Origin: Candidatus Pacearchaeota archaeon
GTDB taxonomy: Archaea; Nanobdellota; Nanobdellia; Pacearchaeales; GW2011-AR1
Length of the DNA stretch: 48,659 bases
Assembly (NCBI GenBank): GCA_023142835.1
Contig: JAGLIS010000023.1
Span: 1-48,659 of the forward strand
Reading direction: 5' to 3'
Below the pieces are notes generated by a model. The model had not been told where the DNA came from. It was given only the letters and a program-made list of their open reading frames with translations, and made no database searches. Shown in pieces: positions 9,225 through 32,043 of this stretch (position 1 is the stretch's first letter; each line of letters starts with the position of its first letter). Position numbers and translations under genes: made by a program.

Positions 9225-10295
9225 ATGAACAAAAGAGGTATCTCAGCAATTGTAGCTACGGTCTTAATAATTTTAGTTACCGTCGCTGGTGTGACGATTG
9301 TTTGGGCGGCGATTATTCCTTTGATTCAGCAGAGCTTCGAGTTTTCTGAGTTGGAAGGAAGGGTCAGCGTCGTGAGTTCTGGAGGTTATACTTCCTATGA
9401 TGCCGACAAGAAACTTGCGATGGTGCAAGTTAAACGAGATGTTGACGACGAGGTCATGGAAAGTATTAAAATTCTTTTTTCCGTCAACGGTTCCAGCTTC
9501 GGGAGTTCGGTTCCAGCGCCAGAATCGGGACTAACTAAAGTTTATACTTTTGATTTAAGCGATTATGGTGAACCCGACTCTGTGAAAGTTGTTCCAATTT
9601 TTGTCGTCGGTAATACTGAAAAAGAAGGGTCGGTGACTTCCGATGTTAGAATGTCAAAGGGAGTAATTTCAGAAGTTGCGGATATTGTTTATGAATTGGG
9701 GGGAGATTATCAAACTCTTAGAAGGTCATGTTTAGAAATTCTCGATGCTGGAGTTTCCGTAGGTGATGGAGTTTACGATATTTTTATTGGAGGGGATTCA
9801 GTTTCCGTTTATTGTGATATGACTACCGACGGTGGGGGGTGGACGAGGATAGATTTTGTTAACGACCTTCCCCATATAAATCGTTGGACAGGTGGAGATA
9901 CGTGGAGATGGTTGCCTTCAAATTTTGAAACAGTTTTGTCTTCAAATCAAATTCAAGCAATACAATCAATTTCAACAGAAGGTAAGCAGAGGTATGATGG
10001 AACTTGTAATGGAGTCTTACATTATTACTTTGTTGATTGGAACACTTATGATTATTCTTTTGGGTTTAGATTTTTAAATGGTGATGTAACAAGTAATGGG
10101 GTTTCAGATTTAGGGGTTGATTTTACAATAGTTTTGGATGATTGTAAAAATAACAACAACAATGTTCTAGAACATACAATTTTAGATATTAATGATATTA
10201 GGGTTCCGATAGTAAATGTAATGAGTCAGGATAATGGGGGATCTGGAGAGATGTTTGGTTCAGCTCTAACGGCAAATCCTGCGTGGTTGAGATAA
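9225..10295 (+). CDS. Archaeal type IV pilin-like protein with fibrinogen-like YCDxxxxGGGW C-terminal domain
   Basis: Class III signal peptide MNKRG|ISAIVATVLIILVTVAG. Later SCLEILDAG..GDGVYDI......VYCDMTTDGGGWTRI. Confidence 0.75.
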   Translation: MNKRGISAIVATVLIILVTVAGVTIVWAAIIPLIQQSFEFSELEGRVSVVSSGGYTSYDADKKLAMVQVKRDVDDEVMESIKILFSVNGSSFGSSVPAPESGLTKVYTFDLSDYGEPDSVKVVPIFVVGNTEKEGSVTSDVRMSKGVISEVADIVYELGGDYQTLRRSCLEILDAGVSVGDGVYDIFIGGDSVSVYCDMTTDGGGWTRIDFVNDLPHINRWTGGDTWRWLPSNFETVLSSNQIQAIQSISTEGKQRYDGTCNGVLHYYFVDWNTYDYSFGFRFLNGDVTSNGVSDLGVDFTIVLDDCKNNNNNVLEHTILDINDIRVPIVNVMSQDNGGSGEMFGSALTANPAWLR

Positions 10296-12011: not shown

Positions 12012-12572
12012 ATGAAGGAAGTGGGGAATGTTTTGAGGATTTTAAGAGAGACTAAGAAGTTTATGGAAGAGGGTAATTTTCATGAAATAAAAGATTTATC
12101 AAGTCAGACAATTCATTCTGCGACAATTTCTCAAGATGCGGATAATATTATTGTGGCTGTTTTGGTTTATTCTTTGAGTAAGATTCTTGAACGAGAGCAT
12201 TACAGAGATATGGAAGGTTGGTCGGAGTTTTATGATGCTATGACTAAAAATCTTGATTTGGCTATTCAGGCGCTTGAGAAGAATGATGTTGAAAAAACGC
12301 GGGTTTATCTTGGGAAGATTAGAAATTCATTGAATAAAATTTCGGGTGATCTGGGTCAGTATATTAAGGATATTTTTAGGAAGGCGGAAATTAATAAGGC
12401 GTTTAAACTTTATGAGCATGGTTTGTCGTCGGAGCAGACTGCAAAGCTTCTTGGAGTGAGTTTGTGGGATATGGCATCGTATATTGGACAGTCACATATT
12501 GGCGATTCAAAAATTGCGATTAGTATGCCTGTGGCGAAGAGGGTTAAGATTGCAGAGGATATTTTTGGATGA
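12012..12572 (+). CDS. Hypothetical protein with C-terminal HTH-like segment
   Basis: LSSEQTAKLLGVSLWDMASYIG. No family recognised. Confidence 0.5.
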   Translation: MKEVGNVLRILRETKKFMEEGNFHEIKDLSSQTIHSATISQDADNIIVAVLVYSLSKILEREHYRDMEGWSEFYDAMTKNLDLAIQALEKNDVEKTRVYLGKIRNSLNKISGDLGQYIKDIFRKAEINKAFKLYEHGLSSEQTAKLLGVSLWDMASYIGQSHIGDSKIAISMPVAKRVKIAEDIFG

Positions 12573-12634
12573 AGATTCGGAAGGCGAAGAAAGGGGATGA
12601 AATGCGGATTTCTGGTATATTCAGAAGGGGTTAG
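12569..12634 (+). other. Mini-ORF MKIRKAKKGDEMRISGIFRRG, looks like an N-terminal stub of a GNAT-type gene
   Basis: ATG overlaps the upstream TGA (ATGA). The M.IR.A...D start is typical of acetyltransferases. Truncated after 21 codons. Confidence 0.35.
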
Positions 12635-12849: not shown

Positions 12850-14451
12850 ATGATATCTATTAACGATTTTACAAAAAGCTTTGAAAGAGACAATTTATTC
12901 GAAAACATGAATTTAATAATCCATCCGAATAAGCGAATTGCGTTAGTCGGTAAAAATGGTGCAGGGAAAACGACGTTTCTAAGGTGTCTGGTTGGACAGG
13001 AAGAGTTCCAGGGAAGAATCACAACTGACAAAATAAAGATAAGTATAATGGAACAGGAAAACAACTTTGAAAATTTAGATAAAACATTTAACGACTATAT
13101 TAGCGACAAGAAGCAAGGGTTGGAAAAGATGAAAATTGAACTAGAAGAACAGATGAGTGCCCCTGAATTTTATGAAGATGAAAATAAATTTAGTGCATTA
13201 ATGAATCGTTATGATCTTCTTTTGACAGATGGTTCATTTGAATTAGAAAATGCTGATCTAATCGAAATTCTAGACAAGTTAGATATAAATGAGAATGTTC
13301 TAAACCAGAAGATATCTAGCTTGAGCGGCGGGCAAAAGATAAAGTTACGTCTTGCAGAATGTCTTGCGAAAAAGGCCGATCTCTACTTGCTAGATGAGCC
13401 AACAAATCACATAGATTTGGAAACGTCTGAATGGCTGGGAAAACATATTCAAGAAAATATAAAATCTTTAATTGTAATTTCTCATGATAGGTATTTTTTA
13501 AATGAGATTGTAGATGAGGTATGGAAAATCGAAGACAAAAAACTGGAAAAGTATATAGGTAGTTATGACGATTATGAAGAAGAAGAATTTAAACATTTGA
13601 AATTGTTAAGAGAGAAATTCAGGGATGCCACAAGGCGAAAGGAAAAGTTATTGGAATCTGCGAAAGAAAAAAGGCGTTGGGCTTCTATGGCAGGGAGTAA
13701 AAGATTAAAGTCCTTAGCAGATAGATTGGAGCGAGAAGCGGAAAGTATAGAGATAGGAGTGAACCCTGAAGATTTACTTGTTGACATTAAAATAGCATTC
13801 ACAAATAAGAAGCTTCATAAATGTGAGGTCTTCAGATTAGTCGATTTGACTAAAAAGTTCGAAGAGAAAATACTTTTTGAGAATGTTAATCAAGAGATTA
13901 CTAATGGTGAGAAGATTGCGATTATCGGAAGAAATGGAAGTGGGAAGACAACTTTATTGAAAATGCTAATGGGGCATGAGGCAGTAACGGGTGGAGCTAT
14001 GAATAAAAGGCAGGACTTAAAGATAGGTTACTTTGATCAAGAGCTAGGAGATATAGACAAAAAACAAACAGTAATGGAATTTTTAGAAAGCGAGATAGGC
14101 AAAAAGCGAGAAACTCTGACTTCGGCTCTTTCGGGATTTGATTTTGATAAAAAATTTCTTTCTCAAAAAATCAAAAAATTATCTGGCGGAGAAAAGGGAA
14201 GATTAAATATCTTAAGGATAACATTAGAGGATAATGAGATCTTATTATTGGATGAACCAACAAATAATCTAGACATTAATCTAAAAGATTTATTAGAGAA
14301 GGCGATTAGGAAATTTCCCGGGACGGTTGTGATTATTTCTCATGATAGGCATTTTATGGATAAGGTGGCTACGAGAATATTCGAGATTAAAGATAAAAAG
14401 ATAAAAGGTTATAGTGGAAACTATTCTGATTATCTTGAAATTAAAAAGTAG
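12850..14451 (+). CDS. ABC-F family ATPase (two nucleotide-binding domains, no membrane domain)
   Basis: GKNGAGKTT/LSGGQK/LLDEPTNH and GRNGSGKTT/LSGGEKGR/LLDEPTNN, with a charged helical inter-domain linker. Confidence 0.9.
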   Translation: MISINDFTKSFERDNLFENMNLIIHPNKRIALVGKNGAGKTTFLRCLVGQEEFQGRITTDKIKISIMEQENNFENLDKTFNDYISDKKQGLEKMKIELEEQMSAPEFYEDENKFSALMNRYDLLLTDGSFELENADLIEILDKLDINENVLNQKISSLSGGQKIKLRLAECLAKKADLYLLDEPTNHIDLETSEWLGKHIQENIKSLIVISHDRYFLNEIVDEVWKIEDKKLEKYIGSYDDYEEEEFKHLKLLREKFRDATRRKEKLLESAKEKRRWASMAGSKRLKSLADRLEREAESIEIGVNPEDLLVDIKIAFTNKKLHKCEVFRLVDLTKKFEEKILFENVNQEITNGEKIAIIGRNGSGKTTLLKMLMGHEAVTGGAMNKRQDLKIGYFDQELGDIDKKQTVMEFLESEIGKKRETLTSALSGFDFDKKFLSQKIKKLSGGEKGRLNILRITLEDNEILLLDEPTNNLDINLKDLLEKAIRKFPGTVVIISHDRHFMDKVATRIFEIKDKKIKGYSGNYSDYLEIKK

Positions 14452-14476
14452 TTAATTTTTTACTTAAGAATAAAGA

Positions 14477-14545
14477 AATAAATATTTAATTTTCGATGCG
14501 GAGTTGATAATGGGCAGATATTTAAATAGTATTTTACTTATATGA
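14477..14545 (+). pseudogene. Start-less 5' stub of the PIN-like gene at 15922
   Basis: Reads ..KYLIFDAELIMGRYLNSILLI*; the ATG is replaced by AAT. Confidence 0.5.
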
Positions 14546-14622
14546 ATAATATGTTACTTAATGAAAAGGAATTTAAAATTTAATGATGGGGGGAGTCATA
14601 TTTTGGCGATGAAAAAATTAAA

Positions 14623-14679
14623 ATGAAATATTTAATCTTCGACGCAGGATTTAAAATTATGAATGGGGTGTTTGAATGA
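14623..14679 (+). other. Mini-ORF MKYLIFDAGFKIMNGVFE (5' stub of the PIN-like gene)
   Basis: First 23 nt identical to 15922-15944. Its TGA overlaps the nitroreductase ATG. Confidence 0.6.
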
Positions 14680-15254
14680 AATTCCAAGAAGTAATTGACA
14701 AAAGACATACTACGAGAGAATTTGAAGAAAAGAAAGTTTCGTTGAAGACCTTAAAAAAATTAGTCTCGAATGCAACAAAAGCACCTTCTGCAGCAAATTG
14801 GCAGCCAGGGGAATTTTATATAATTCAATCAGAAGAGATGATAAAAAAACTTTCAGAAATATTAGTGAAATTTTTAGGAAAAGAAAATAAAGAATTGAAA
14901 AAACTTCCGAAGAAATTGCAGGGAATAACCAATAAATTTTATTCAACTCTTGGAGGATGTAAAACTGTAATTTTTGTGTATACAAAAAGAAATAAAGATT
15001 TGAGAAAAAGAGATAGTAGTATTATGAGTGTTTCTGCGTCAATTGAGAATTTGTTGCTTAGTGCAGTTGATGAAAATCTTGGGACTTGCTGGATGGGTTC
15101 ATTCAAGATGGTTCAAAAAGAGATTAATGTGCTTTTGAAAATTCCAAAAAACTTTGAAATGGTTGCGGGATTATTAATTGGTTATCCAAAGAAGGGTTAT
15201 ATTCCGCTTAAAAGAAAAAAGAAAAAACTTTCGGAGGTTTTGAGAGTTATATGA
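14676..15254 (+). CDS. Nitroreductase family protein
   Basis: IDKRHTTREFEEKKVS...ATKAPSAANWQP and the C-terminal GYP motif region. Confidence 0.85.
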   Translation: MKFQEVIDKRHTTREFEEKKVSLKTLKKLVSNATKAPSAANWQPGEFYIIQSEEMIKKLSEILVKFLGKENKELKKLPKKLQGITNKFYSTLGGCKTVIFVYTKRNKDLRKRDSSIMSVSASIENLLLSAVDENLGTCWMGSFKMVQKEINVLLKIPKNFEMVAGLLIGYPKKGYIPLKRKKKKLSEVLRVI

Positions 15255-15391
15255 AATATCTAATCTTCTATACGGGAAAAATTAAAAACCAAAACAAATA
15301 TAAACTGAGTTCTATAATAGATTATAATTTAAGTCCTCGGTGTTACCTGCAAGGATATGCTGGGTTTTATATTTTTAAGAGGTGTTTTTGA
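15251..15391 (+). other. 46-codon mini-ORF starting with a second stub of the PIN-like gene (MKYLIFYTGK...)
   Basis: ATG overlaps the nitroreductase TGA. Its TGA is immediately followed by the ATG at 15392. Confidence 0.55.
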
Positions 15392-15925
15392 ATGAAACTA
15401 ATTTATATTTACGGACCTCCTGCTTCGGGAAAACTAACTGTAGCTAAAGAACTAGAGAAACTTACAAAATATAAATTGTTTCATAATCATTTGATTAATG
15501 ATGTTATTTCAGAAATTATGGATTTTGAACATCCTAAATTCTGGAAATTTACTGATAGATTGAAATTGGAGGTTTTTGGTTTAGCTTCTCGATTTAATGT
15601 AGGGGGAATGATTTTTACTCAAACATATGTTGGCGGGAGTTTTCCAAAGAAAGCAAAAAAAATAATTGAAAAGTATGATGGAAGAGTTTATTTTGTAAAA
15701 CTTGAACCGAGCAAAGAGGAATTAATGAAAAGGGTTTGTTATGTTTTTAGAAAGAAATATCAAAAATTTTCTTCAAAAAATGAATTAAAAAAATTTATGG
15801 AAAAAAATGATGCCTATAGGAAAGCTTCTGCAAAAAATCAAATGATCATCGATAATACATGTGTTCCCTCGAAGAAAGTCGCTGAGATGATTGTAAAGAA
15901 TTTTAAATTGAGGAGATTATTATGA
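15392..15925 (+). CDS. P-loop NTPase / small-molecule-kinase-like protein
   Basis: Variant Walker A GPPASGKLT. Paralogue of 17451-17990. Confidence 0.65.
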   Translation: MKLIYIYGPPASGKLTVAKELEKLTKYKLFHNHLINDVISEIMDFEHPKFWKFTDRLKLEVFGLASRFNVGGMIFTQTYVGGSFPKKAKKIIEKYDGRVYFVKLEPSKEELMKRVCYVFRKKYQKFSSKNELKKFMEKNDAYRKASAKNQMIIDNTCVPSKKVAEMIVKNFKLRRLL

Positions 15926-16596
15926 AATATTTAATCTTCGACGCTGGGCCGATAATTTCTTTGACGATGAATGGGATGTTGTATTTGGTTGAGAATTTGA
16001 AGGAAGGGTTTGATGGAGAATTTATTTTGACGCCTCAGGTTAAGAGAGAGGTTGTTGACAGGCCGATGAAAATTAAGAAGTATAAGCTCGAAGCTATTCA
16101 GGTTAATGATATGATTGAGAGAGGTGTTTTTAAGATGTCTTCGGAGATTGTGTCAAATCAGAAATTGGATGTGGAAGTTAAGCGGATTTTGAAAGTTACT
16201 GGAGGAGTTTTAAGAACGGTGCAAACTGGTGAGAAGATAAAGATTATTCATAGTGGTGAAGCGGCGTGTCTCGCATTTTCTAAGTTATGTGGTGCGGAGA
16301 GTGTAATCATTATTGATGAGAGAACTACAAGGATGTTGACGGAGGCACCGCAGAATTTGAAGGAGATGATGGAGAGGAAATTGCATACACCACTTAAAGC
16401 AGAACTGTCGTTGCTGGATGAGTTGAAGGATTTTAAATTCATCCGTTCTGCAGAGCTTCTTTTTGTTGCTTATAAAAAAGGGTTAATACCTATAAAGAAA
16501 AGTAAAGATTTACTTGATGCTTTGCTTTATGGTGTCAAGTTTAAAGGTGCGGCGATTTCTTCTAAAGAGATTGAAGAGATGAAAAAATTGGTTTAG
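15922..16596 (+). CDS. PIN-like nucleic-acid-binding protein (PIN_3/DUF3368-like)
   Basis: IFDAGPIISL, TPQVKREV, HSGEAACLA, IIIDERTTR. Confidence 0.55.
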   Translation: MKYLIFDAGPIISLTMNGMLYLVENLKEGFDGEFILTPQVKREVVDRPMKIKKYKLEAIQVNDMIERGVFKMSSEIVSNQKLDVEVKRILKVTGGVLRTVQTGEKIKIIHSGEAACLAFSKLCGAESVIIIDERTTRMLTEAPQNLKEMMERKLHTPLKAELSLLDELKDFKFIRSAELLFVAYKKGLIPIKKSKDLLDALLYGVKFKGAAISSKEIEEMKKLV

Positions 16597-16680: not shown

Positions 16681-17358
16681 TTATAAGATTAACTTTGGAA
16701 TTTCGTCTAAAGACTTGACTTGCGAATACTTTTCTAATTTTGAATCAGGAGAATCTGATCTATGAACATATATTCCTTTAGCATTTGCCGGATAATTCTT
16801 CCTTAAATCATCTGCCACAAGAACATCCTCTGCTCTATCTCCAATACAATAGATGTCACCCTCTTGATATTGCATTTTTTTTAACAAATCTATTGCCCCT
16901 TCATACTTTGTTTTTTGGTCATTGGAAACTATACTAATTCTATCTCCAAAATATTCTTCTAATCCCAAATGTCGAATTTTTTGAAGTTGATTGCTTTTAT
17001 TAGAGGATCTTGAAAGTAACCCTAAATTTACTCCATTTTCCATTAAGGAATTTAATATCTTTCTTGTTTCAGAATAAAGAGTTATTTCTCCAGAGTTTAA
17101 AGCACCATCTAGTGTATACAAATTCTTAAAATTCTCTCTGTAGCTTTGATCTAATTCTTCTTTACCAAATCCGTATTGAGCTGCTAATGCATATTTGTCC
17201 TTTTTCCCTTCGGTAACTGCCTGTCTTTCTGTAATGGAAATACCAAGACCTCTGAATGTTTTTATAAGCTCATTAGACATCCATTTGTCAGAATTTACCA
17301 AAGTTCCATCAAGGTCAAATATAGCAACTCTCTTTTTCGATATATCTTTATTTATCAT
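16681..17358 (-). CDS. HAD-superfamily phosphatase
   Basis: VAIFDLDGTLVNS motif I and a GDRAEDV motif IV-like region. ATG at 17358 preferred over TTG at 17373; a TATA-like TTTATATATT lies ~25 nt upstream. Confidence 0.85.
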   Translation of the reverse strand: MINKDISKKRVAIFDLDGTLVNSDKWMSNELIKTFRGLGISITERQAVTEGKKDKYALAAQYGFGKEELDQSYRENFKNLYTLDGALNSGEITLYSETRKILNSLMENGVNLGLLSRSSNKSNQLQKIRHLGLEEYFGDRISIVSNDQKTKYEGAIDLLKKMQYQEGDIYCIGDRAEDVLVADDLRKNYPANAKGIYVHRSDSPDSKLEKYSQVKSLDEIPKLIL

Positions 17359-17450
17359 GTAACTACTAAGCAAGGGTAATATATAAACCTTTTGTTTTCC
17401 AATTTTTTGGGATTACAAAGATATATAAACATTACAATAAATTTAAATAT

Positions 17451-17990
17451 ATGAAATTAATATTTGTTTATGGCCCTCCAGCATCGGGAAAACTTACTGT
17501 ATCAAAAGAATTATCAAAAATTACTGGATATAAATTGTTTCACAATATGCTTACAGTTGACTTGGCGCAAACTGTTTTGGATTGGAATGATAAAAATTTC
17601 GGTGACTTAACAACAAAATACAGACTTATAACTTTTGAAGAGGCAGCAAAAGCAAATGTAGAAGGGATTATATTTACTTATGCTTATGCACCTGGAGTTG
17701 ATGATGATTTTGTAAAAAAAGTTATTAATCAAATGAAATCACATAATGGAGAGATACATTTTGTGCAGATTCACGCAGAAAAAGAAGAACTATTAAAAAG
17801 AGTTGAAAGCGATTCTAGAAAAGAACTCAAAAAATTAATTGATAAATCTGTATTAGAAAAGCAGTTAGTCAAGAGAGATCAATATGCAAAAATTCCTTTT
17901 GTTGAAACTTTTTCTGTTGATACTACCTGCGTTTCTGCAAAAGAAACTGCTGAGAAAATAAAAGAACATTTTAAATTAGTTTCTGATTAA
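17451..17990 (+). CDS. P-loop NTPase / kinase-like protein, paralogue of 15392-15925
   Basis: MKLIFVYGPPASGKLTVSKEL..YKLFHN matches MKLIYIYGPPASGKLTVAKEL..YKLFHN. Confidence 0.65.
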   Translation: MKLIFVYGPPASGKLTVSKELSKITGYKLFHNMLTVDLAQTVLDWNDKNFGDLTTKYRLITFEEAAKANVEGIIFTYAYAPGVDDDFVKKVINQMKSHNGEIHFVQIHAEKEELLKRVESDSRKELKKLIDKSVLEKQLVKRDQYAKIPFVETFSVDTTCVSAKETAEKIKEHFKLVSD

Positions 17991-22521: not shown

Positions 22522-24045
22522 ATGGATGAAAAATTGATTGTAGAGTTTTTGTCTCCTATTGAAAGAGCTACGCTTCCTAAGTTGGGTCTGGATTTTTCTG
22601 ATTTGGAAGATGTTGCGAAGAAAACTTCTCAGGATAAAACTACTGTGCTTCGGGCAATTGGATTTTTGAAGAATAAGGGTTTGATTGAGAGTGAGAGTTC
22701 TGAAGAAGAGGTTGTTAGTTTAGGAATTTTAGGAATTTATTATTTGAAGAAAGAGTTGCCAGAGAGAGTGCTTTTGAATAAGCTTTCTGAGAAGGGAGGG
22801 ATTTTGATTAGTGAGATTCGGAATGTTTGTGGGTTGAATGAGAATGAAGCGAAGATTGCGTTTGGAACATTGAAGAAAAAGGCACTTGTAGAAATTGAGA
22901 AAGGGAAGTTGAATCTTGTTGCGAAATCTAGTGAGGTTACTAAGAAGATGCTGGAGGAATTATTTCTTGAGAAGCTTCCTCTTAATGTTGATTTGATTGA
23001 GGCACAGGATAAATTGGCCTTGCAGAATTTGAAGTCTAGGAAGGATATTATTAAGGTTGAGATTCAGAAGAAAATTAGCGTTAAGTTGACTGAATTGGGT
23101 AAGAAGATTTCATCGAGGGATTTGGATAAGAATTTAATTGAGCAGTTGACTCCTAAGATGATAAAGCAAAATACTTGGAAGGGGAAGAAGTTTCGGAGGT
23201 ATGATTTGTCCTTACCTGTTCCGAGGGTTTATGGGGGAAAAAGATATTTTGTTAATCAAGCGATTGATTATGCTAAGTCGATTTGGTTGGAAATGGGTTT
23301 TAAGGAAATGACTGGGAGTAAGATTGAGACAGGTTTTTGGATTTTCGATGCATTGTTTACTGCACAAGATCATCCAGTTAGAGAAATGCAAGATACGTTT
23401 TATTTGAAAGGTATGGAGGGGAAATTGCCTGATGACAAGAAATTAATTGAGAGTGTGAAGAAAGCACACGAAGGAGGGATTGATGGGAGTAAGGGTTGGC
23501 AATATAAATGGGATGAAGAAAATGCGAAAAAGGTTTTGATGAGAACACATACTACTTCGTTGTCGGCTAGAAAGCTTAGAGAGATTAGAGATACGAAAGA
23601 GTTTCCTGCGAAGTATTTTGCTATTGGAAAATGTTTTAGAAACGAGACTGTTGATTGGTCGCACGGGTTTGAGTTTAATCAAACTGAGGGGATTGTCGTC
23701 GATGAGAATGCGAATTTTAGACAACTACTCGGTTATTTGATTCAATTTTATAAGAAAATGGGTTATGAGAAAATTAGGATAAGACCGGCGTATTTTGCAT
23801 ATACCGAGCCTTCATTAGAAGTCGATGTTTTTCATCCTGTGCATAAGAAATGGGTTGAGCTTGGAGGTGCAGGAATGTTTAGACCAGAAGTAACTATTCC
23901 TATGTTCGGAAAACATATTCCTGTTTTGGCATGGGGGCAGGGATTTGATAGGATTATTACGGAGTTCTTTGAGATTAATGATTTACGAGAAGTTTACAAG
24001 AATGATATAAATAAATTGAGGGAGATGAAGTTTTGGAGAAAATGA
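22522..24045 (+). CDS. pheS: Phenylalanyl-tRNA synthetase alpha subunit (archaeal/eukaryal type)
   Basis: HPVREMQDTFYL, RTHTTSLSAR, FRNETVDWSHGFEFNQTEG, GAGMFRPEV. Confidence 0.95.
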   Translation: MDEKLIVEFLSPIERATLPKLGLDFSDLEDVAKKTSQDKTTVLRAIGFLKNKGLIESESSEEEVVSLGILGIYYLKKELPERVLLNKLSEKGGILISEIRNVCGLNENEAKIAFGTLKKKALVEIEKGKLNLVAKSSEVTKKMLEELFLEKLPLNVDLIEAQDKLALQNLKSRKDIIKVEIQKKISVKLTELGKKISSRDLDKNLIEQLTPKMIKQNTWKGKKFRRYDLSLPVPRVYGGKRYFVNQAIDYAKSIWLEMGFKEMTGSKIETGFWIFDALFTAQDHPVREMQDTFYLKGMEGKLPDDKKLIESVKKAHEGGIDGSKGWQYKWDEENAKKVLMRTHTTSLSARKLREIRDTKEFPAKYFAIGKCFRNETVDWSHGFEFNQTEGIVVDENANFRQLLGYLIQFYKKMGYEKIRIRPAYFAYTEPSLEVDVFHPVHKKWVELGGAGMFRPEVTIPMFGKHIPVLAWGQGFDRIITEFFEINDLREVYKNDINKLREMKFWRK

Positions 24046-24440
24046 ATAAGAAAAAGAAGGATATAATTAAGAAAGTTAGGCTTAGAAGTTTATCTAAGAA
24101 GAATTTGAGATGTGAATTTGTTTTTGGAAAAAGTTTGGAGGTTGTTGATGTGATTGATAAGATTTTAAGTAGATTGGGAGATTTAGAAGAGCTTGATTTA
24201 GCTAATGGGGAATCACGAAAGGTAAAAATTAATGAATGGGTTGATGTAGTTTGTAATATTAAAAATGATGATTATTCTGTTGATGTTTTTTTTGGGAAGA
24301 GCAAGATTGTTTTAGTGATTAACAGTCGAAGGGATAAGCAGAGGGAGATTTCAGAGGCTGTGTTTGAGTTTGTAGAGCTTGAAGATATAACTTCTAAAAA
24401 TTTAAGTAAATTAAACTGGATGAAGTTTTGGAGGAAGTGA
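24042..24440 (+). CDS. Hypothetical protein orfA; C-terminal 13 aa copied from the PheS tail
   Basis: ATG overlaps the pheS TGA. Ends NLSKLNWMKFWRK* (PheS ends DINKLREMKFWRK*). Paralogue of orfB. Confidence 0.6.
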   Translation: MNKKKKDIIKKVRLRSLSKKNLRCEFVFGKSLEVVDVIDKILSRLGDLEELDLANGESRKVKINEWVDVVCNIKNDDYSVDVFFGKSKIVLVINSRRDKQREISEAVFEFVELEDITSKNLSKLNWMKFWRK

Positions 24441-24790
24441 TGGTTAAGTTAAGAAGTACAGACAAGGGAAAATTTAGATGTGAATTTAATTTTGAGAAGA
24501 GTGATGAAGTCATTGACGCTATTACTTCTATAGTGGGAAGGTTGGGAATGAATGAATCTCCAGAGAATAATTTGAGGGATTTGATTTACGACGAAAGAAG
24601 TTCTGGTTTAGGATTTAAGATTGAAGAAGCTGTTGATGAAATATATGGGATGAATAATAAAGATTATTTTGTAAATATTTTTCTTGGAAATGAAAAAATT
24701 ATTTTAGTTGTTAATAGTTTTACTGATAAACAAAAGGAAATTTCTGAAGCGGTGTTTGAGTTTGCGGATTTTGAGGAGGTGAGAAAATGA
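24440..24790 (+). CDS. Hypothetical protein orfB, tandem paralogue of orfA
   Basis: RCEFNFEKSDEVIDAI..DKQKEISEAVFEF matches RCEFVFGKSLEVVDVI..DKQREISEAVFEF. TGATG overlap with orfA. Confidence 0.6.
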   Translation: MVKLRSTDKGKFRCEFNFEKSDEVIDAITSIVGRLGMNESPENNLRDLIYDERSSGLGFKIEEAVDEIYGMNNKDYFVNIFLGNEKIILVVNSFTDKQKEISEAVFEFADFEEVRK

Positions 24791-25161
24791 CAATACTAAA
24801 TAACGGAATAAAAAATATGATTGAAAATAATGCCTTGGGATTTGCGAGTATAGACAAATCTGGAAAGCCTCACAATATTGCAGTTGGTTTTGTAAAAGTT
24901 GTATCTAATAATGAACTAGTTATCTCAGATAATTATCTTAATGAGACTGTTGAAAATATAAAAATAAATCCAAGCGTTTCACTTGTCGTATGGAGTAGGG
25001 ATTGGGAAGAAAACTGTGCAGGGTATGAGTTAAAAGGGACTGTGGAATATTTTACGGAAGGAAACTGGATTGATTTTATCAAGAAAATTCCAGTAAATAG
25101 GAATGAGCCTTGTAAGGGAGCGATATTAGTTAAACTAAATAAGATTAAAATTTTATCTTGA
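24787..25161 (+). CDS. Pyridoxamine 5'-phosphate oxidase-like FMN-binding (split-barrel) protein
   Basis: FASIDKSGKPHNIAVGF...NIKINPSVSLVVW. First 13 nt identical to the pheT start. Confidence 0.7.
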   Translation: MTILNNGIKNMIENNALGFASIDKSGKPHNIAVGFVKVVSNNELVISDNYLNETVENIKINPSVSLVVWSRDWEENCAGYELKGTVEYFTEGNWIDFIKKIPVNRNEPCKGAILVKLNKIKILS

Positions 25162-25162
25162 A

Positions 25163-25216
25163 ATGACAATATTAATATTAAATAAATCAGGGGATATGAG
25201 GTTTTGGAGGAAATGA
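25163..25216 (+). other. Mini-ORF MTILILNKSGDMRFWRK: pheT head fused in frame to pheS tail
   Basis: 25163-25190 resembles the pheT 5' end and 25184-25216 the pheS 3' end. Its TGA overlaps the next ATG. Confidence 0.6.
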
Positions 25217-25782
25217 AAAAATTAATTTTAATCCATGGATGGGGAGGAAGCCCAATTAGTGAATCTTGGTTTGACTTATTGAGAAAAGAATGTGAAGATA
25301 AGAACATTGATTTCATTGCACCAGAGATGCCAAACACAGATAGTCCAAGAGTTGATGAATGGATTTCAAAACTTAGGGAGGTTGCGATAAATTTAGATGA
25401 GGAGACTTATTTTGTGGGTCATAGTATGGGTTGTCAAACTATAATAAGATATTTATCTGAGATTGACAGTGAGATAAAAGTTGGAAGAATAGTTTTTGTT
25501 GCACCATGGACAAAATTAAACGAGAAGTCGATTGAAGAAGAAGGGGAAGAAAGCGAAAAAATCGTTAAATCTTGGGAAGAAGTTCCAATAGATTTTGGGA
25601 AAGCGAAGAGTCATTTAATGAGAGTTTTAGCGATTTTCTCTGATAATGATCCATATGTTCTCTTATCTGAAACGAAAGTTTTCGGAGATAAGTTGGGAGC
25701 AGAGATAATTATTAAACATGATGAGGGGCATTTTAATGAAACAAAAGAGATAAATGAGATAATGGAGTTTATTGAAAGATGA
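25213..25782 (+). CDS. Serine hydrolase of the RBBP9/YdeN alpha/beta family
   Basis: ILIHGWGGSP, GHSMGC nucleophile elbow, DNDPYV, HDEGHF. Confidence 0.8.
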   Translation: MKKLILIHGWGGSPISESWFDLLRKECEDKNIDFIAPEMPNTDSPRVDEWISKLREVAINLDEETYFVGHSMGCQTIIRYLSEIDSEIKVGRIVFVAPWTKLNEKSIEEEGEESEKIVKSWEEVPIDFGKAKSHLMRVLAIFSDNDPYVLLSETKVFGDKLGAEIIIKHDEGHFNETKEINEIMEFIER

Positions 25783-26441
25783 CGATATTAACTGTTAATA
25801 AAAAAGAATTGAGGAAGCCGATGATTGCTGTTTCGATGTCAGGAGTTTTGATTAGTTCTAAGTTTTGGAAGGAGGCTCATGATTTTGGAATGAAGGAACT
25901 TTCGAAGAAAGTAGGTGATTCATCGATATTAAAGGCAAGGGATTCTCCAGACTATTTTAAGAAAGTTGAGGAAGCGTTGGAGAAAATTTATCCGGACTTG
26001 ACATTAGTAGAAAGGATAAAGAAGCGAAGAGAAATTTATTTCGAGAGGGTTGTTAATTCAATTAAGAGGAATTTGGATATTCGAGAAGATGTGACTGATT
26101 GTCTTTGGGGTTTGAAGGAGAATTATCGGTTAGCTTTGGTGACGACGAATAACGAGAAGACGACTTATGAGATTCTTAGGTTTTTGACAGCCAGAGATTT
26201 TTTTGATGTTGTTGAGTTTTCTAAGGATGAGGAGAAGGACGATAAGATTGAGGTAATGAAAAGATTGATTGAGAAAAATGGGAAACCAATCTTGTTCATT
26301 GAGAAGTCAGAGAAGTTGAAGGATTTTTGTGAAGAAGGGAAAATTGCTTATATTAATTTTAATGTTGATTTGGAAGGTGCCATAGATTTGAAAAGTAAAA
26401 TTGAAGAGAAATTAAACCTTGGAGGAAGTGATGGGAATTAG
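25779..26441 (+). CDS. HAD-like protein with degenerate catalytic motif; N-terminus copied from PheT
   Basis: MTILTVNKKEL versus PheT MTILTLDKKEL. SMSGVL sits where DxDGT is expected. LVTTNN. Confidence 0.6.
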   Translation: MTILTVNKKELRKPMIAVSMSGVLISSKFWKEAHDFGMKELSKKVGDSSILKARDSPDYFKKVEEALEKIYPDLTLVERIKKRREIYFERVVNSIKRNLDIREDVTDCLWGLKENYRLALVTTNNEKTTYEILRFLTARDFFDVVEFSKDEEKDDKIEVMKRLIEKNGKPILFIEKSEKLKDFCEEGKIAYINFNVDLEGAIDLKSKIEEKLNLGGSDGN

Positions 26442-26805
26442 AGAATTACAGAATAAGATAAAGGAATTTGATGTTGCTAGAGGTTGGGAGAATCATTGGA
26501 ATATCAAAGATTTGCTCTTGAACATAACTGAAGAGGGTGGTGAACTTTGGAGTTTGATTAAATGGATTGATGAGGATAAGCAAAAGGAAATTGTTGTTTC
26601 TAATAAAGCTGAGGTTTCTGATTATATTGGAGATACTTTGTTTTTGATCTTGAAACTTGCGAATCAAATGGATGTTGATGCTACTGATGCTTTGAATAGA
26701 ACTTTAAATGATTATGAAAAGAGAATGATACCTGAAGTTATGAAGGAGGTTGGACATGCCAATCCCTTGGCAGGTGGGGTTGATAATAAGGAGGCGTTGG
26801 AATGA
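26431..26805 (+). CDS. MazG-like nucleotide pyrophosphohydrolase
   Basis: RELQNKIKEFDVARGW, TEEGGELW, IGDTLFLILKLAN. Confidence 0.75.
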   Translation: MGIRELQNKIKEFDVARGWENHWNIKDLLLNITEEGGELWSLIKWIDEDKQKEIVVSNKAEVSDYIGDTLFLILKLANQMDVDATDALNRTLNDYEKRMIPEVMKEVGHANPLAGGVDNKEALE

Positions 26806-28457
26806 CAATACTAACATTAGATAAAAAAGAATTGGAAAAGAAAGTTGGGAAGATTACGAAGGAGTTGGAAGAGAAGATTACTAAGATGGGAACTCCGATT
26901 GAAGAAGTTAGTGATGATGAATTATCTGTTGAGGTTTTTCCGAATAGGCCTGATTTGTTGTCTCTTGGAAATTTTTCTAAGGCTATTAATCAATTTAATG
27001 GTGTTGGTAAGATTGCGAACTTTAAAATTAATAAGCCAGAGAAAGATTATGTTGTGACTATCGATAGTTCTGTGAAGGCTGTTAGACCGTATACTGTTTG
27101 TGCAATTGCTAAGGGGTTGAAGTTTACTGAAGAGAAGATTAAGGAAATAATTGATGTTCAAGAGAAGTTGCATAATTCGATTGGGCGAAAGAGGAAAAAG
27201 TTAGCGATTGGAATTTATCCTCTAGATAAGATTGCGTTGCCTATTAGGTTTGTAGCGAGGAAGCCTGGAGATATAAAGTTTTTACCTTTGGAGGCTAGTC
27301 AGGAAATGACTGGGACGCAGATTCTTCGAGGACATCCTACGGGGAGGGAGTATGCACATTTGCTCGAGGGTGCAGAAGTTTTTCCTATTTTTATTGATGC
27401 TAGTGATAAGATTTTGAGTATGCCTCCGATTATTAATTCTCATGAGACTGGGAGGATTGATGAGAAGACGCATGAAGTTTTTATTGAATGTTCGGGACAT
27501 AATTTGGCTTATTTAAAAAAGTGTATGAATATTATTATTGCAACAATTTCTGAGATGGGTGGGAAGATTTACGAGATGAATATTAAGGATTCGAAGGAGG
27601 GGAATTTTGTTTCACCTAATATGTCTTGTGAGGAATTGGAATTTAAAATTTTAGATATTGAAAAGACGCTTGGGATAAAGTTGAGTGAGAAGGAAGTAAA
27701 AAATTATTTGGGTCGGATGGGTATTGGTTGTGAGAATAGGAAGGGGAAATCGGTTGCATTAATTCCTGCTTATCGAACAGATATTTTGCATTGGATTGAT
27801 TTGACTGAGGAGATTGCGATTGCTCATGGTTATGAAAATTTTGAACCGGAGATTCCTAATATTTCAACGATTGCGTTTGAAGATCCTGTTGGGAAGACGA
27901 AGAGGGTCATAGGTAATATTCTTGCAGGGTTGGGATTTTTGGAGACGTCTTCGTTTCATTTGACGACGAAGAAAGATATTAAGAAGATGCATTTTGATTA
28001 TAATGATTTTATTGAGGTGGAGGATTCGAAGACGGGGAGGGATGTTCTTAGGATGGATGTACTGACGAATCTTTTGAAGATTTTGTCGGAGAATTCAGAT
28101 GCAGGATATCCTCAGAAAATTTTTGAGATGGGGACGGTTTTCTCTAGGAGTGATTTAGAAAATTCTGCAACTGGAGTGGATGAGATTGAGAGATTAGCTA
28201 TTGCGTTTATTGATGAGAAGCCTAACTTTATGGAATTAAAGCAGGCGGTTGATTATTTATTTAAGATGCTTGGGAAGGAGTATACTTTGGAAAATGTTGA
28301 GAATTCAAATTATATTATTGGACGGTGTGGGAAGGTTATTGTTGAGGGGAAAGATGTTGGTTTTATTGGCGAGGTTGCTCCAAGGGTTTTGAAGAATTGG
28401 AAACTTAAAATGCCTGCAACTGCGATAGAAATTGATTGGGGGTTTTTGTTTCAATAA
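26802..28457 (+). CDS. pheT: Phenylalanyl-tRNA synthetase beta subunit (archaeal type)
   Basis: B3/4 and B5 domain pattern (FPNRPDLLS, PPIINSHETG). 551 aa. ATGA overlap with the upstream gene. Confidence 0.95.
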   Translation: MTILTLDKKELEKKVGKITKELEEKITKMGTPIEEVSDDELSVEVFPNRPDLLSLGNFSKAINQFNGVGKIANFKINKPEKDYVVTIDSSVKAVRPYTVCAIAKGLKFTEEKIKEIIDVQEKLHNSIGRKRKKLAIGIYPLDKIALPIRFVARKPGDIKFLPLEASQEMTGTQILRGHPTGREYAHLLEGAEVFPIFIDASDKILSMPPIINSHETGRIDEKTHEVFIECSGHNLAYLKKCMNIIIATISEMGGKIYEMNIKDSKEGNFVSPNMSCEELEFKILDIEKTLGIKLSEKEVKNYLGRMGIGCENRKGKSVALIPAYRTDILHWIDLTEEIAIAHGYENFEPEIPNISTIAFEDPVGKTKRVIGNILAGLGFLETSSFHLTTKKDIKKMHFDYNDFIEVEDSKTGRDVLRMDVLTNLLKILSENSDAGYPQKIFEMGTVFSRSDLENSATGVDEIERLAIAFIDEKPNFMELKQAVDYLFKMLGKEYTLENVENSNYIIGRCGKVIVEGKDVGFIGEVAPRVLKNWKLKMPATAIEIDWGFLFQ

Positions 28458-28487
28458 ACTTATAAACTTCTTAGCTTGATTAAGTAA

Positions 28488-29099
28488 ATGAGGGTGTCGT
28501 ATATTATCTCGGGGATAGTGATTATTTTGATGATTTTGGTTGGAGTTCTTTTTGTTTTTGGAGATGAGGTTTTACGAACAGCAGATAGTATAATGTCTCC
28601 AGAGGATAGCTCCAACCAAGAAAATATTGTGGAAGCTGAGGAGGGTGAAGGAATGGAAGAGACTGGTGGAGCTAAGGGAGTTGAAGGTTCGGATGTTGGA
28701 GAGAATGATTTTGAAGGTTCGGATGTTGGAGAGAATGATTTTGAAGAAGTAGGAGGGTCTAATTGTAAGATGCAGCAAATTCAATATTCTTTGAGGAATT
28801 TTAAGACTGATGTGGCGTGTACGGATACTGATGCTAATGGATGTATTAGGGTTGTTGTAAGTTGTTCTGTAGAGGTTTACAGCTTTGATAAAGAGGTTGA
28901 TATTTTTGGAATGAGATATTCCTTGGTCGATTCCGAAGATAATGAGTTAGATTTTGAGTTGATTGAAAAAGAAGTTGGATTCGAGACACCAGTTGTTTTT
29001 TCGATAGAGTTTATTAGGAGTGATATCTCGGGTGTCGATGAGGATTTGACTTGTCCGTTTACTGTGGAAACAGTTCCTCGAAGAGAAGTTTGTAGTTAG
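28488..29099 (+). CDS. Membrane-anchored acidic hypothetical protein
   Basis: N-terminal TM segment, then a Glu/Gly-rich region containing an internal tandem repeat. Confidence 0.5.
   Translation: MRVSYIISGIVIILMILVGVLFVFGDEVLRTADSIMSPEDSSNQENIVEAEEGEGMEETGGAKGVEGSDVGENDFEGSDVGENDFEEVGGSNCKMQQIQYSLRNFKTDVACTDTDANGCIRVVVSCSVEVYSFDKEVDIFGMRYSLVDSEDNELDFELIEKEVGFETPVVFSIEFIRSDISGVDEDLTCPFTVETVPRREVCS
28681..28746 (+). repeat. Perfect 30-nt tandem duplication (2.2 copies) inside a CDS
   Basis: TTGAAGGTTCGGATGTTGGAGAGAATGATT x2 plus TTGAAG; encodes FEGSDVGEND twice. Confidence 0.95.
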
Positions 29100-29104
29100 A
29101 TGTG

Positions 29105-29584: not shown

Positions 29585-29676
29585 GATTAGTTCATCAAGA
29601 AAGCATTTATAAATTTAAGGGATGGGGGATTATAATACCCTACCTAATCTATCTTGAATTGGGCGGGGCATGCTAT

Positions 29677-29772
29677 GCCTGATTAGCTCAGTTGATAGAG
29701 CGTCGCATTGGTAAAGACTCTTTGAGAAATCCAAAAATGCGGAGGTCGTGGGTTTGATCCCCATGTCAGGCT
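29677..29772 (+). tRNA. tRNA-Thr (anticodon GGT) with a ~23-nt intron at 37/38 (29714-29736)
   Basis: Acceptor GCCTGAT/GTCAGGC, D arm GCTC-AGTTGATA-GAGC, anticodon stem TCGCA/TGCGG, loop TTGGTA|intron|A. Intron CCAA pairs with TTGG (BHB-like). Confidence 0.75.
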
Positions 29773-32041: not shown

Positions 32042-32043
32042 TA

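What the first reader, a model, noticed from the sequence alone, without database searches (positions are those of the whole stretch)
14474..15950. Second locus with the same architecture: the 5' end of a PIN-like gene occurs four times, bracketing a nitroreductase and a P-loop gene
The head of the gene at 15922 (ATGAAATATTTAATCTTCGACGCTGGG, MKYLIFDAG) recurs at 14623-14648 (first 23 nt identical) and at 15251-15276 (21/27, MKYLIFYTG). It recurs again without a start codon at 14477-14512 (KYLIFDAELI). The nitroreductase and the P-loop gene each sit between two head copies. Both end in an ATGA overlap with a head copy. Both are preceded by the same GGTGTTT(TT)GAATGAAA (14667-14681, 15381-15397). 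The repeating unit is head stub, spacer, tail-like motif, ATG, gene, ATGA, which mirrors 25163-25782 at the pheS/pheT locus. Two independent loci argue for a recurrent process rather than a one-off rearrangement.
Basis: partly seen in the sequence, partly recalled or inferred. Interest (0 to 1): 0.85.

Follow-up and report, generated by a model that had tools for sequence, protein, structure and literature searches.

The report
Gene-cassette pile-up at a conserved gene junction
In this tiny archaeon (Pacearchaeota), accessory genes have been inserted one after another at the exact joint between two conserved, overlapping genes, and each insertion left a short copy of the downstream gene's start, which records how a streamlined genome gains genes without a recognisable mobile element.

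Summary
The first 26-35 nt of the DUF3368/PIN-like gene (15922) recur at 14477, 14623 and 15251, and these are the only significant matches to a head profile in the 48.6-kb window. Three independent assemblies carry the same sequence.

In 56 of 77 related genomes the PIN gene directly follows, with an ATGA overlap, the 186-aa gene at 12012-12572. ABC-F, the nitroreductase and the P-loop gene are therefore all inserts (3.35 kb), and a GNAT gene remnant lies beside them.

The same joint holds different genes in 21 of 42 closer relatives. Four of those also carry PIN-head stubs, one a perfect 58-nt duplication.

The pheS|pheT joint in the window shows the same pattern, with four pheS-tail copies and four pheT-head copies. 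These two genes are directly adjacent in a relative.

Stub end points vary from +13 to +58. No recombinase gene, attC site or terminal inverted repeat was found.

Best reading: cassettes accrete by recombination anchored in the conserved flanking gene, with one illegitimate joint. This resembles Rhs/T6SS displacement arrays. Most stubs persist as short ORFs that keep the chain translationally coupled.

I rate it a new variant of a known kind and moderately interesting.

The parts
12012..12572 (+). Conserved upstream partner gene ('up186', 186 aa, weak UPF0175/HTH hits). Its stop overlaps the next start codon (ATGA).
   Evidence: Lies directly upstream of the PIN homolog in 56 of 77 related loci. 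Pfam hits are weak.
12569..12634 (+). Head stub of a GNAT acetyltransferase cassette (21-codon ORF, MKIRKAKKGDEMR...). It starts in the ATGA overlap with up186.
   Evidence: 68% identical over 19 residues to the N-terminus of the L023 GNAT, and 50-71% over 14-18 residues to other GNATs that occupy this position in relatives.
12850..14451 (+). ABC-F ATPase cassette. It is an insert, not a conserved neighbour.
   Evidence: Absent within 6 kb of PIN in all 80 relatives apart from one weak hit in L033. Passes the NCBIfam NF000355 cut-off. ABCFs are nearly absent from Archaea (PMC6723617).
14477..14511 (+). Stub 0: PIN-head copy without a start codon, homologous to about +35 and eroded.
14623..14679 (+). 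Stub 1: an 18-codon mini-ORF (MKYLIFDAG|FKIMNGVFE*). It consists of the PIN head to +26, then a segment resembling the up186 3' tail. Its stop overlaps the nitroreductase ATG (ATGA).
14676..15254 (+). Nitroreductase cassette.
   Evidence: Pfam PF00881. Homologs sit at up186|PIN in L100 and between porA and porB in L098/L099, with overlapping stops and starts.
15251..15391 (+). Stub 2 plus leader: a 46-codon ORF. It holds the PIN head (clear to +18/26, to about +36-39 by homology with L041) followed by the conserved leader. It starts in an ATGA overlap with the nitroreductase stop, and its own stop abuts the P-loop ATG.
15278..15394 (+). Conserved ~100-nt leader. It has a TATA-like AAACAAATATAAAC (15292-15305), a hairpin (15335-15364), a T-rich tract and a GAGGTG Shine-Dalgarno sequence.
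   Evidence: nhmmer E 1e-18 to 1e-30 against L041, L004 and L002. The 8-bp outer stem pairs in all 4 sequences, and its 3 varying pairs change only on one side. No third-position bias. The TATA resembles other promoters in the window. No Rfam hit.
15392..15925 (+). P-loop kinase-like cassette. It is 43% identical to the paralog at 17451-17990.
   Evidence: A nonsense variant occurs in a second sample at 15786.
15922..16596 (+). Intact DUF3368/PIN-like gene, the conserved downstream anchor whose head is copied.
   Evidence: 786 homologs, with an invariant N-terminus MKYL(I/V)FDAGPIISL among the 23 aligned.
24024..24045 (+). Second locus: native pheS 3' tail (…MKFWRK*). Copies lie at 24419-24440, 25195-25216 and (shorter) 26419-26431.
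   Evidence: The 13-nt core occurs 4 times in the window, all in this interval. The 22-nt version occurs 3 times against 0.01 expected.
25163..25216 (+). Second locus: a 17-codon chimeric mini-ORF (MTILILNK|SGDMRFWRK*). The pheT head is fused in frame to the pheS tail. Its stop overlaps the hydrolase ATG.
26802..28457 (+). Second locus: pheT. Its head is copied at 24787 (13/13 nt), 25163 (21/24) and 25779 (27/33, now the N-terminus of a HAD gene).
   Evidence: pheS and pheT are directly adjacent in L009.

Best explanation
This is a hotspot where accessory genes accumulate at the stop-start overlap between two conserved, co-translated core genes of Pacearchaeota. These are the 186-aa gene and the DUF3368/PIN-like gene. 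The pheS|pheT joint behaves the same way.

Proposed steps:

1. DNA from a relative, in which some accessory gene already sits at this junction, recombines with the resident chromosome.
2. One crossover is homologous, in the highly conserved downstream gene.
3. The other end joins illegitimately a few dozen nucleotides inside the resident copy of that gene's 5' end. This is homology-facilitated illegitimate recombination. An equivalent route is single-crossover integration of a circularised tail-gene-head unit through the short junction homology.
4. The incoming piece brings its own junction: a remnant of the upstream gene's tail, ATG, the cassette, and ATGA plus an intact head. The resident head is therefore left behind as a stub.
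5. Repetition gives stub-cassette-stub-cassette-gene.

Fate of the stubs. Stubs that happen to form short ORFs running from the previous stop to the next start are retained, because they pass ribosomes along the chain. Other stubs erode. Recombination between head repeats can delete cassettes and restore the clean junction.

What is shown: the ancestral adjacency, recurrent insertion of unrelated genes, the head and tail copies, variable stub end points, cassette homologs at other junctions, and open relay ORFs.

What is inferred: the recombination route and the relay function.
For: Ancestral adjacency: 56 of 77 relatives, including the closest one (L001/L102), have up186-ATGA-PIN.

Recurrence: 21 of 42 closer relatives carry 155-1790 nt of unrelated genes at that joint. 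These include several GNAT types, a deaminase, NYN, a kinase, a membrane protein and a SnoaL-like protein.

Stubs elsewhere: L002, L004, L016 and L041 carry head stubs. L016 has a perfect 58-nt duplication around an 84-nt insert. A degenerate 17-nt head pattern hits 40 times in 789 kb of the 80 loci. That is 35 true heads plus 5 stubs, and all 5 stubs lie inside the 13.6 kb of insert intervals.

Variable end points: stubs end at +13/17, +23, +26, +35, +39 and +58. For pheT they end at +13, +24, +33 and +56.

Head-to-tail joints, in frame: MKYLIFDAG|FKIMNGVFE* and MTILILNK|SGDMRFWRK*. pheS-tail copies occur only in the pheS-pheT interval. pheS and pheT are adjacent in L009.

Cassette mobility: nitroreductase homologs lie at up186|PIN in L100 and at porA|porB in L098/L099. 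The same stub+leader unit precedes NYN in three genomes and the P-loop gene here.

No recombinase or transposase domain was found among the 37 window ORFs scanned.

Relay ORFs: 8 of 11 stubs are open exactly up to the next start codon. Per-stub shuffle probabilities are 0.02-0.29. All length differences in the body of the stub+leader ORF are multiples of 3 nt, yet there is no third-position bias.

Precedent: the same mechanism was proposed for T6SS, Rhs and CDI displacement arrays (PMC5361080). Hotspots without mobile elements that turn over by recombination in flanking core genes are documented (PMC5635113).
Against: No recombination event is observed directly.

All stub end points lie within about 60 nt of the start codon. 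That is narrower than expected for unconstrained illegitimate joints. It needs either selection or a more specific mechanism.

Most relatives with inserts have clean ATGA-gene-ATGA boundaries without stubs, so stubs record only a minority route or a transient stage.

A mosaic-ancestry test on the PIN and up186 genes was uninformative, because the nearest relatives are about 15% diverged.

The tail remnant before the nitroreductase and P-loop genes is weak and overlaps a ribosome-binding motif.

DNA uptake and recombination have not been studied in these organisms.

The relay-ORF statistics are modest, and the four stub+leader units are not independent.
Confidence: 0.55

Rival explanations
1. 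A dedicated site-specific system, integron-like or Xer-exploiting. A recombinase encoded elsewhere in the genome recognises the junction or head sequence as an attachment site and inserts circular single-gene cassettes that carry their own copy of it. The head copies are attL/attR-type repeats.
For: Direct repeats flank each cassette. Cassettes are single genes of 0.5-1.6 kb stacked in one orientation. The head contains a 10-nt perfect palindrome, TAAATATTTA. The same stub+leader junction (+39) is shared by four genomes. The head|tail chimeras are what a circular tail-gene-head cassette would generate. The perfect 58-nt duplication in L016 looks like a single concerted event.
Against: Stub end points vary from +13 to +58. 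The repeats at the two loci (PIN head and pheT head) are unrelated in sequence. There is no attC-like spacer, since cassettes abut by ATGA overlaps. No recombinase domain was found in the 37 ORFs scanned. Neither the head nor the NYN cassette is on any viral contig. The shared +39 junction is explained by common descent of that unit.
Confidence: 0.15
2. Purely local rearrangement. Tandem duplications have one end in the downstream gene's head and the other in the upstream gene's tail. They copy junction plus cassette, and the duplicated cassettes later diverge or are replaced.
For: A head|tail novel joint is the classic signature of a tandem duplication. c1 and c2 at 24042-24790 are tandem paralogs (48% identity), and c1 ends with a pheS-like tail. 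The P-loop cassette has a paralog 1.5 kb away.
Against: Neighbouring cassettes are unrelated genes: ABC-F, nitroreductase, P-loop; PNPOx, hydrolase, HAD, MazG-like. In L016 the sequence upstream of the two head copies is not duplicated. Nitroreductase homologs occur at other junctions in other genomes. ABC-F is a gene family almost unknown in Archaea, which points to import. The P-loop paralogs share only 43% identity.
Confidence: 0.15
3. The stubs are not scars but selected regulatory upstream ORFs or leader peptides. They resemble the PIN head only because that sequence is an efficient translation-initiation region.
For: 8 of 11 stubs are open ORFs that end at the next start codon. The stub+leader ORF keeps its frame across four genomes.
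Against: Identity to the resident head reaches 25/26 and 58/58 nt, including synonymous positions. Stub 0 has lost its start codon. At the other locus the stubs copy a different gene's head, pheT. Convergence cannot explain locus-specific copies. This reading complements the scar origin rather than replacing it.
Confidence: 0.1
4. Chance AT-rich similarity or a mis-assembly.
For: The genome is about 33% G+C. 13.5% of random 27-mers have a 20/27 match somewhere in the window.
Against: Profile E-values go down to 3.5e-7. The copies are in register with start codons and gene ends. Three independent assemblies from at least two samples are identical. The same architecture is found in other genomes.
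Confidence: 0.01

Closest known systems
Displacement ('orphan') arrays at Rhs, CDI and T6SS effector-immunity loci, attributed to homology-facilitated illegitimate recombination (PMC5361080 and references therein)
   Same: A conserved gene acts as the homology anchor. Successive incoming modules push older material aside. Fragments of the conserved gene are left repeated along the array. The cargo is heterogeneous and no integrase is involved.
   Different: In those arrays the anchor lies upstream and 3' gene ends are displaced. Here the 5' head of the downstream gene is repeated, and at pheS/pheT also the 3' tail of the upstream gene. The cargo here is ordinary metabolic or housekeeping-type genes, not toxin/immunity pairs. 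The host is a DPANN archaeon. The scars are tiny (13-58 nt) and mostly survive as in-frame mini-ORFs that keep stop-start coupling.
Horizontal-transfer hotspots between core genes that lack mobile elements (Oliveira, Touchon & Rocha 2017, PMC5635113)
   Same: The same interval between two core genes holds different accessory genes in related genomes. Turnover is high and there is no integrase or transposase. Recombination in the flanking core genes is the proposed driver.
   Different: The hotspot here is not an intergenic spot. It is the 4-nt overlap of two translationally coupled genes, inside an operon. Inserts are single genes fitted stop-to-start. Junction-duplication scars are visible.
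Integron cassette arrays, including those reported in archaeal MAGs (PMC9668308)
   Same: Single promoter-less genes are stacked in one orientation at one site. The array grows at a fixed entry point. Cassettes are shared among lineages.
   Different: No IntI was found, and there are no attC hairpin sites between cassettes. The repeats are copies of host gene ends and differ between loci.
Integrative elements that target the end of a tRNA or protein gene and carry a replacement copy of it
   Same: The target gene stays intact because the insert supplies a new copy of the interrupted end. Direct repeats of that end flank the insert, and tandem accretion is possible.
   Different: Those elements are kilobases long, encode an integrase and recombine at a fixed core sequence. 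Here the units are single genes, no integrase is present and the end points vary.

Membership tests
Integron / CALIN cassette array | Integron integrase (IntI, tyrosine recombinase) next to the array | tested here: not met
   No recombinase domain in the 37 window ORFs scanned with Pfam. The rest of the genome was not available.
Integron / CALIN cassette array | attC recombination sites (imperfect inverted repeats of about 60-140 nt) after each cassette | tested here: not met
   The nitroreductase|stub 2 and P-loop|PIN boundaries are 4-nt ATGA overlaps with no spacer. The only conserved hairpin (15335-15364) lies in one leader, not after each cassette. No attC covariance model was available.
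Site-specific integrative element with att duplication | Direct repeats of the target sequence flank the insert | tested here: met
   Head copies flank the nitroreductase and P-loop cassettes. L016 has a 58/58-nt repeat.
Site-specific integrative element with att duplication | Fixed crossover position and a cognate integrase | tested here: not met
   Stub end points lie at +13/17, +23, +26, +35, +39 and +58. No integrase found. No viral copy found.
Transposon / IS / MITE | Terminal inverted repeats, a transposase, and a short target-site duplication of fixed length | tested here: not met
   No convincing terminal inverted repeats bound the units. No transposase found. Duplications are 13-58 nt and variable.
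HFIR-type displacement array | A conserved anchor gene lies next to the variable array, and fragments of it are repeated within the array | tested here: met
   PIN is 54-90% identical at the protein level across the closer clade (42 loci) and its N-terminus is invariant among the 23 aligned homologs. Three stubs lie here and five in relatives, all inside arrays.
HFIR-type displacement array | Illegitimate joints at variable positions, with donor-derived flanking sequence next to the joint | tested here: inconclusive
   Variable end points are met. Donor-tail remnants are clear at pheS/pheT but weak at the PIN locus. Donor ancestry of the intact head could not be resolved.
HFIR-type displacement array | Uptake of foreign DNA and one-sided homologous recombination demonstrated | not testable with these tools
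   Needs read-level population data or genetics in an uncultured DPANN archaeon.
Core-gene-flanked HGT hotspot | The same core-gene interval holds different accessory genes in related genomes | tested here: met
   21 of 42 closer relatives have inserts of at least 10 gene families, and 56 of 77 relatives have none. The pheS|pheT interval is 0, 0.56, >1.7 and 2.75 kb in L009, L035, L103 and the window.

The most novel reading that the evidence does not exclude
Pacearchaeota, and perhaps other DPANN archaea, may possess a general 'operon-junction' gene-capture system that needs no integron. The tail-ATGA-head sequence of any tightly coupled conserved gene pair would serve as the attachment site. 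Single genes would circulate between genomes and between junctions as tail-gene-head units, possibly as circles excised by recombination between head repeats or by an unidentified enzyme. The head|tail chimeric mini-ORFs would be functional adaptors that keep every captured gene translationally coupled to the host operon.
Probability: 0.15. Interest if true: 0.85.

Novelty: new variant of a known kind. Interest (0 to 1): 0.6.

Why it matters
DPANN archaea have tiny, streamlined genomes, and how they gain genes is poorly understood. This locus and its pheS/pheT twin show accessory genes being slotted singly into the 4-nt overlap between conserved co-translated genes, without inactivating either gene. 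One of these accessory genes is an ABC-F ATPase, a family almost unknown in Archaea.

The scars are still legible, so the entry route can be reconstructed. The pattern can also be searched for genome-wide by looking for copies of a core gene's first 15-60 nt upstream of it. Metagenome reads can test it by looking for excised or deleted variants.

If the short stub ORFs really relay ribosomes, they would show how newly acquired genes become expressed inside an existing operon without their own promoter. If the process proves site-specific, it would be a new kind of cassette platform.

Tried and rejected
1. An unanchored profile of the up186 3' tail found no significant copy before the cassettes (the motif gave E>50). 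Simple motif searches were not above chance. Only the anchored rank test gives support.

2. I considered that the 3' ends of the nitroreductase and P-loop genes derive from the up186 tail, as suggested by the nhmmer extension. I rejected this. The nitroreductase C-terminus is conserved in homologs from other contexts. The P-loop C-terminus aligns with its paralog. Both rank about 30th of 81 in the anchored test.

3. I considered that the region after stub 0 (14513-14622) is a second, decayed leader. I rejected this, because 12% of genomic 110-mers score as well.

4. I tested whether the stub+leader ORF encodes a conserved small protein. Variable sites are not enriched at third codon positions (5/9/5), so conservation is at the nucleotide level.

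5. A metagenome scan with a leader DNA pattern returned 17 loci that are chance matches only.

6. Viral contigs contain neither the PIN head pattern nor the NYN cassette.

7. Rfam gave no hit in 14300-16100.

8. A mosaic or donor-ancestry test on PIN and up186 was uninformative at about 15% divergence.

9. GC3 is lower in most cassettes (0.17-0.27) than in the flanking core genes (0.35-0.42), but it overlaps with other core genes. This is suggestive only.

10. Contexts of P-loop homologs showed variable neighbourhoods but no junction scars.
Full report
OBSERVATION

The four copies exist. The PIN-like gene starts at 15922 with ATGAAATATTTAATCTTCGACGCTGGG.
- The copy at 14623 differs at 2 of 27 positions, and no shuffle of the window produced such a match.
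- The copy at 15251 matches 21/27.
- The copy at 14477 matches 21/27 and lacks the ATG.

A 20-21/27 match is not rare in this 33% G+C sequence, since 13.5% of random 27-mers have one. I therefore built profiles of the gene head and of the whole junction from relatives. Their only significant hits in the window are the real head and these three places. Whole-window E-values are 7e-6, 0.02 and 0.04. Local E-values are 3.5e-7, 8e-5 and 0.004.

The nitroreductase (14676-15254) and the P-loop gene (15392-15925) each end in an ATGA overlap with a head copy.

The arrangement is not an assembly artefact. An ENA scaffold and a Logan contig are 100% identical across it. A contig from a second sample differs by one base. 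Two more samples have P-loop|PIN contigs.

WHAT THE NEIGHBOURHOOD SHOULD LOOK LIKE

The PIN-like protein is identical to a Candidatus Pacearchaeota MAG protein. It has 786 homologs, most carrying a precomputed DUF3368 hit, and the N-terminus MKYL(I/V)FDAGPIISL is invariant among the 23 aligned.

I fetched 80 species-level loci.
- In 56 of the 77 loci where both genes were found, the 186-aa gene at window 12012-12572 lies directly upstream of PIN. The junction is usually ...GAGGATATTTTTGGATGAAATA..., in which its stop overlaps the PIN start.
- This holds for the closest relative (L001/L102, 89% identity), which is otherwise syntenic with the window.

ABC-F is therefore not the conserved neighbour. 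It is one of three intact genes in a 3.35-kb insertion.

Directly after the 186-aa gene's ATGA the window still has a 21-codon ORF, MKIRKAKKGDEMR.... This matches the N-terminus of the GNAT acetyltransferases that occupy this position in about ten relatives. An earlier GNAT cassette was therefore largely overwritten.

RECURRENCE

In the closer clade (PIN >=54% identical), 21 of 42 genomes have 155-1790 nt inserted at this joint. In the distant clade none of 35 does.

The inserted genes are unrelated. They include several GNAT types, a cytidine-deaminase-like gene, an NYN-domain gene, a different P-loop kinase, a DUF, a membrane protein and a SnoaL-like protein. Most are fitted stop-to-start (ATGA) on both sides, with no scar.

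Four relatives do have head stubs:
- L002 and L004 have one each, and L041 has two.
- In L016 an 84-nt G+C-rich non-coding insert at PIN +58 is flanked by a perfect 58-nt duplication of the head.

A degenerate 17-nt head pattern occurs 40 times in the 789 kb of the 80 loci. That is 35 true heads plus 5 stubs, and all 5 stubs lie inside the 13.6 kb of insert intervals.

CASSETTE MOBILITY

Nitroreductase homologs are rare: 16 proteins, with the best at 50-61% identity.
- One lies between an up186-like gene and a DUF3368 gene in another genome (L100), without stubs.
- Another lies between the two subunit genes of pyruvate:ferredoxin oxidoreductase in L098/L099, with ATGA overlaps on both sides.
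- A third follows a por gene in L101.

The C-terminus of the nitroreductase is conserved across these contexts, so its 3' end is its own.

The copy at 15251 is part of a larger unit. The head (to about +39) is followed by a ~100-nt leader that is conserved in L041, L002 and L004 (nhmmer E 1e-18 to 1e-30). There the unit precedes an NYN gene. Here it precedes the P-loop gene, and homology stops at the start codon.

The leader has these features:
- a TATA-like AAACAAATATAAAC that resembles other promoters in the window;
- a hairpin whose 8-bp outer stem pairs in all four sequences, with three one-sided (wobble) changes and either a UUCG or a GCAA loop;
- a T-rich tract and a GAGGTG.

No Rfam family matches it.

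The P-loop cassette carries a nonsense mutation in one sample, which suggests it is dispensable.

ABC-F passes the NCBIfam cut-off for ribosomal-protection-like ABC-F. This family is absent from almost all Archaea (PMC6723617), so it is probably imported.

THE SECOND LOCUS

The mirror is real and clearer.
- pheS and pheT are directly adjacent in L009 (…MKFWRK*, TAAATG). They are separated by 0.56 kb in L035, by more than 1.7 kb in L103 and by 2.75 kb (six small genes) in the window.
- The pheT head (ATGACAATACTAAC…) recurs at 24787, 25163 and 25779, with homology ending at +13, +24 and +33. L103 has a 56-nt pheT-head stub in front of an antitoxin/ParE pair.
- The pheS 3' tail also recurs. The 13-nt core TTGGAGGAARTGA occurs four times in the window, all at cassette boundaries in this interval. 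The 22-nt version occurs three times against 0.01 expected.
- One cassette ends with a 49-residue pheS-like C-terminus, and the HAD gene begins with a pheT-like N-terminus.
- At 25163-25216 the pheT head is fused in frame to the pheS tail (MTILILNK|SGDMRFWRK*), and its stop overlaps the next start codon.

At the PIN locus the analogous mini-ORF is MKYLIFDAG|FKIMNGVFE*. The up186 tails of relatives read IKIAEDIFG*, VGIAEGVFG* and IKIAEDIFE*.

An anchored score against the up186 tail ranks the 30 nt before the nitroreductase start 1st of 81 gene starts, and those before the P-loop start 3rd of 81. The unanchored search was not significant. The motif also contains a Shine-Dalgarno sequence, so this point is suggestive only.

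RELAY ORFS

Of 11 stubs examined, 8 are open from a start codon at the previous gene's stop to a stop overlapping or abutting the next start codon. They are the window stubs at 14623, 15251 and 25163, plus those in L016, L041 (two), L002 and L004.
- Shuffles reach this state in 2-29% of trials per stub.
- The four stub+leader units keep a 46-48-codon frame despite about 20% divergence, and all length differences in the ORF body are multiples of 3 nt. Variable sites nevertheless show no third-position excess.
- This fits selection for being translated rather than for a peptide.
- Three stubs are not relays: 14477, the GNAT stub and L103.

MECHANISM

The scars are direct repeats of the junction, with head|tail novel joints and variable end points (+13 to +58). 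The repeats are locus-specific, being the PIN head at one locus and the pheT head and pheS tail at the other. Among the 37 ORFs scanned, none has a recombinase, transposase or integrase domain. There is no attC-like spacer and no viral copy.

The simplest route is recombination with DNA from a relative that already carries a gene at this junction. One crossover lies in the conserved downstream gene, and one illegitimate joint lies just inside the resident head. The resident head is stranded, and the incoming segment supplies tail remnant, cassette and a new head. This is homology-facilitated illegitimate recombination, as proposed for T6SS, Rhs and CDI arrays (PMC5361080).

The clean inserts in most relatives fit ordinary double homologous exchange in the flanking core genes, as in MGE-free hotspots (PMC5635113). 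Alternatively, they reflect later compaction.

Single-crossover integration of circular tail-gene-head units gives the same product and cannot be excluded. Recombination between head repeats would delete cassettes and restore the ancestral ATGA, which would explain the patchy distribution.

What remains odd is that every joint lies within about 60 nt of the start codon. Selection for short, non-toxic relay-competent stubs may explain this, but a more specific process is not ruled out.

COMPARISON AND VERDICT

It works like a displacement array or a core-flanked HGT hotspot. It is not an integron, a transposon or an integrase-borne island, because their defining features were tested and not met.

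The new aspects are:
- the host, a DPANN archaeon;
- the site, a 4-nt stop-start overlap inside an operon;
- the single-gene, stop-to-start packing;
- the repetition of 5' heads, and at the second locus also 3' tails;
- the persistence of scars as coupling mini-ORFs.

I rate it a new variant of a known kind, with interest 0.6. The main caveats are that all evidence is comparative, the relatives are at least 11% diverged, and the enzymology is inferred.

Noticed in passing
window 12850-14451: The ABC-F ATPase scores above the NCBIfam cut-off for 'ribosomal protection-like ABC-F' (451.8 against 380). ABCFs are reported absent from almost all Archaea, so this is probably a bacterial gene captured by a Pacearchaeote.
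   Followed up: partly
L004 6379-6456; also proteins P0002, P0006, P0008, P0009, P0051, P0064, P0081: Some PIN homologs carry one or two tandem in-frame 39-nt G+C-rich units (…TLANSDKKAGARC…) at the same position in an otherwise highly conserved protein. This may be an in-frame mini-repeat or mobile element.
   Followed up: no
L016 2881-3027 (also 2372-2446), L030 5465-5545, L041 5100-5240, L020 5040-5075: Short G+C-rich, partly palindromic or tandem inserts sit at the same up186|PIN junction in AT-rich genomes. In L016, one is flanked by a perfect 58-nt duplication of the PIN head and ends in a Shine-Dalgarno sequence.
   Followed up: partly
window 15786: A contig from a second sample (L106) has T->A here. 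This turns codon 132 of the P-loop cassette (TTA) into a stop, so the cassette seems to be decaying in part of the population.
   Followed up: yes
window 15278-15394 (hairpin 15335-15364): A conserved ~100-nt leader has a promoter-like TATA and a hairpin. The hairpin loop is UUCG in two genomes and GCAA in two, while the outer stem stays paired. No Rfam family matches it. Its function (promoter with structured 5' UTR, or terminator) is untested.
   Followed up: partly
window 9225-10295, 16681-17990 and 22522-33115, compared with L102: The closest relative lacks several parts of the window. It lacks the 356-aa gene with weak collagen/fibrinogen C-terminal hits, the HAD and second P-loop genes downstream of PIN, and the whole block from pheS to the DUF5667 gene between RNase P p30 and PfkB. 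Gene-content flux is therefore widespread along this contig.
   Followed up: partly
window 24042-24790: Two tandem paralogous genes of unknown function (48% identity) lie here. The first ends with a 49-residue copy of the pheS C-terminus.
   Followed up: partly
window 12012-12572 and 15922-16596: The conserved pair resembles a UPF0175-antitoxin/DUF3368-PIN toxin module. However, it is conserved like a core operon (54-90% protein identity in the closer clade, 36-46% in the more distant Woesearchaeota-labelled loci). The 186-aa protein has a weak match to PDB 8vd6 ('CAP repeat').
   Followed up: no
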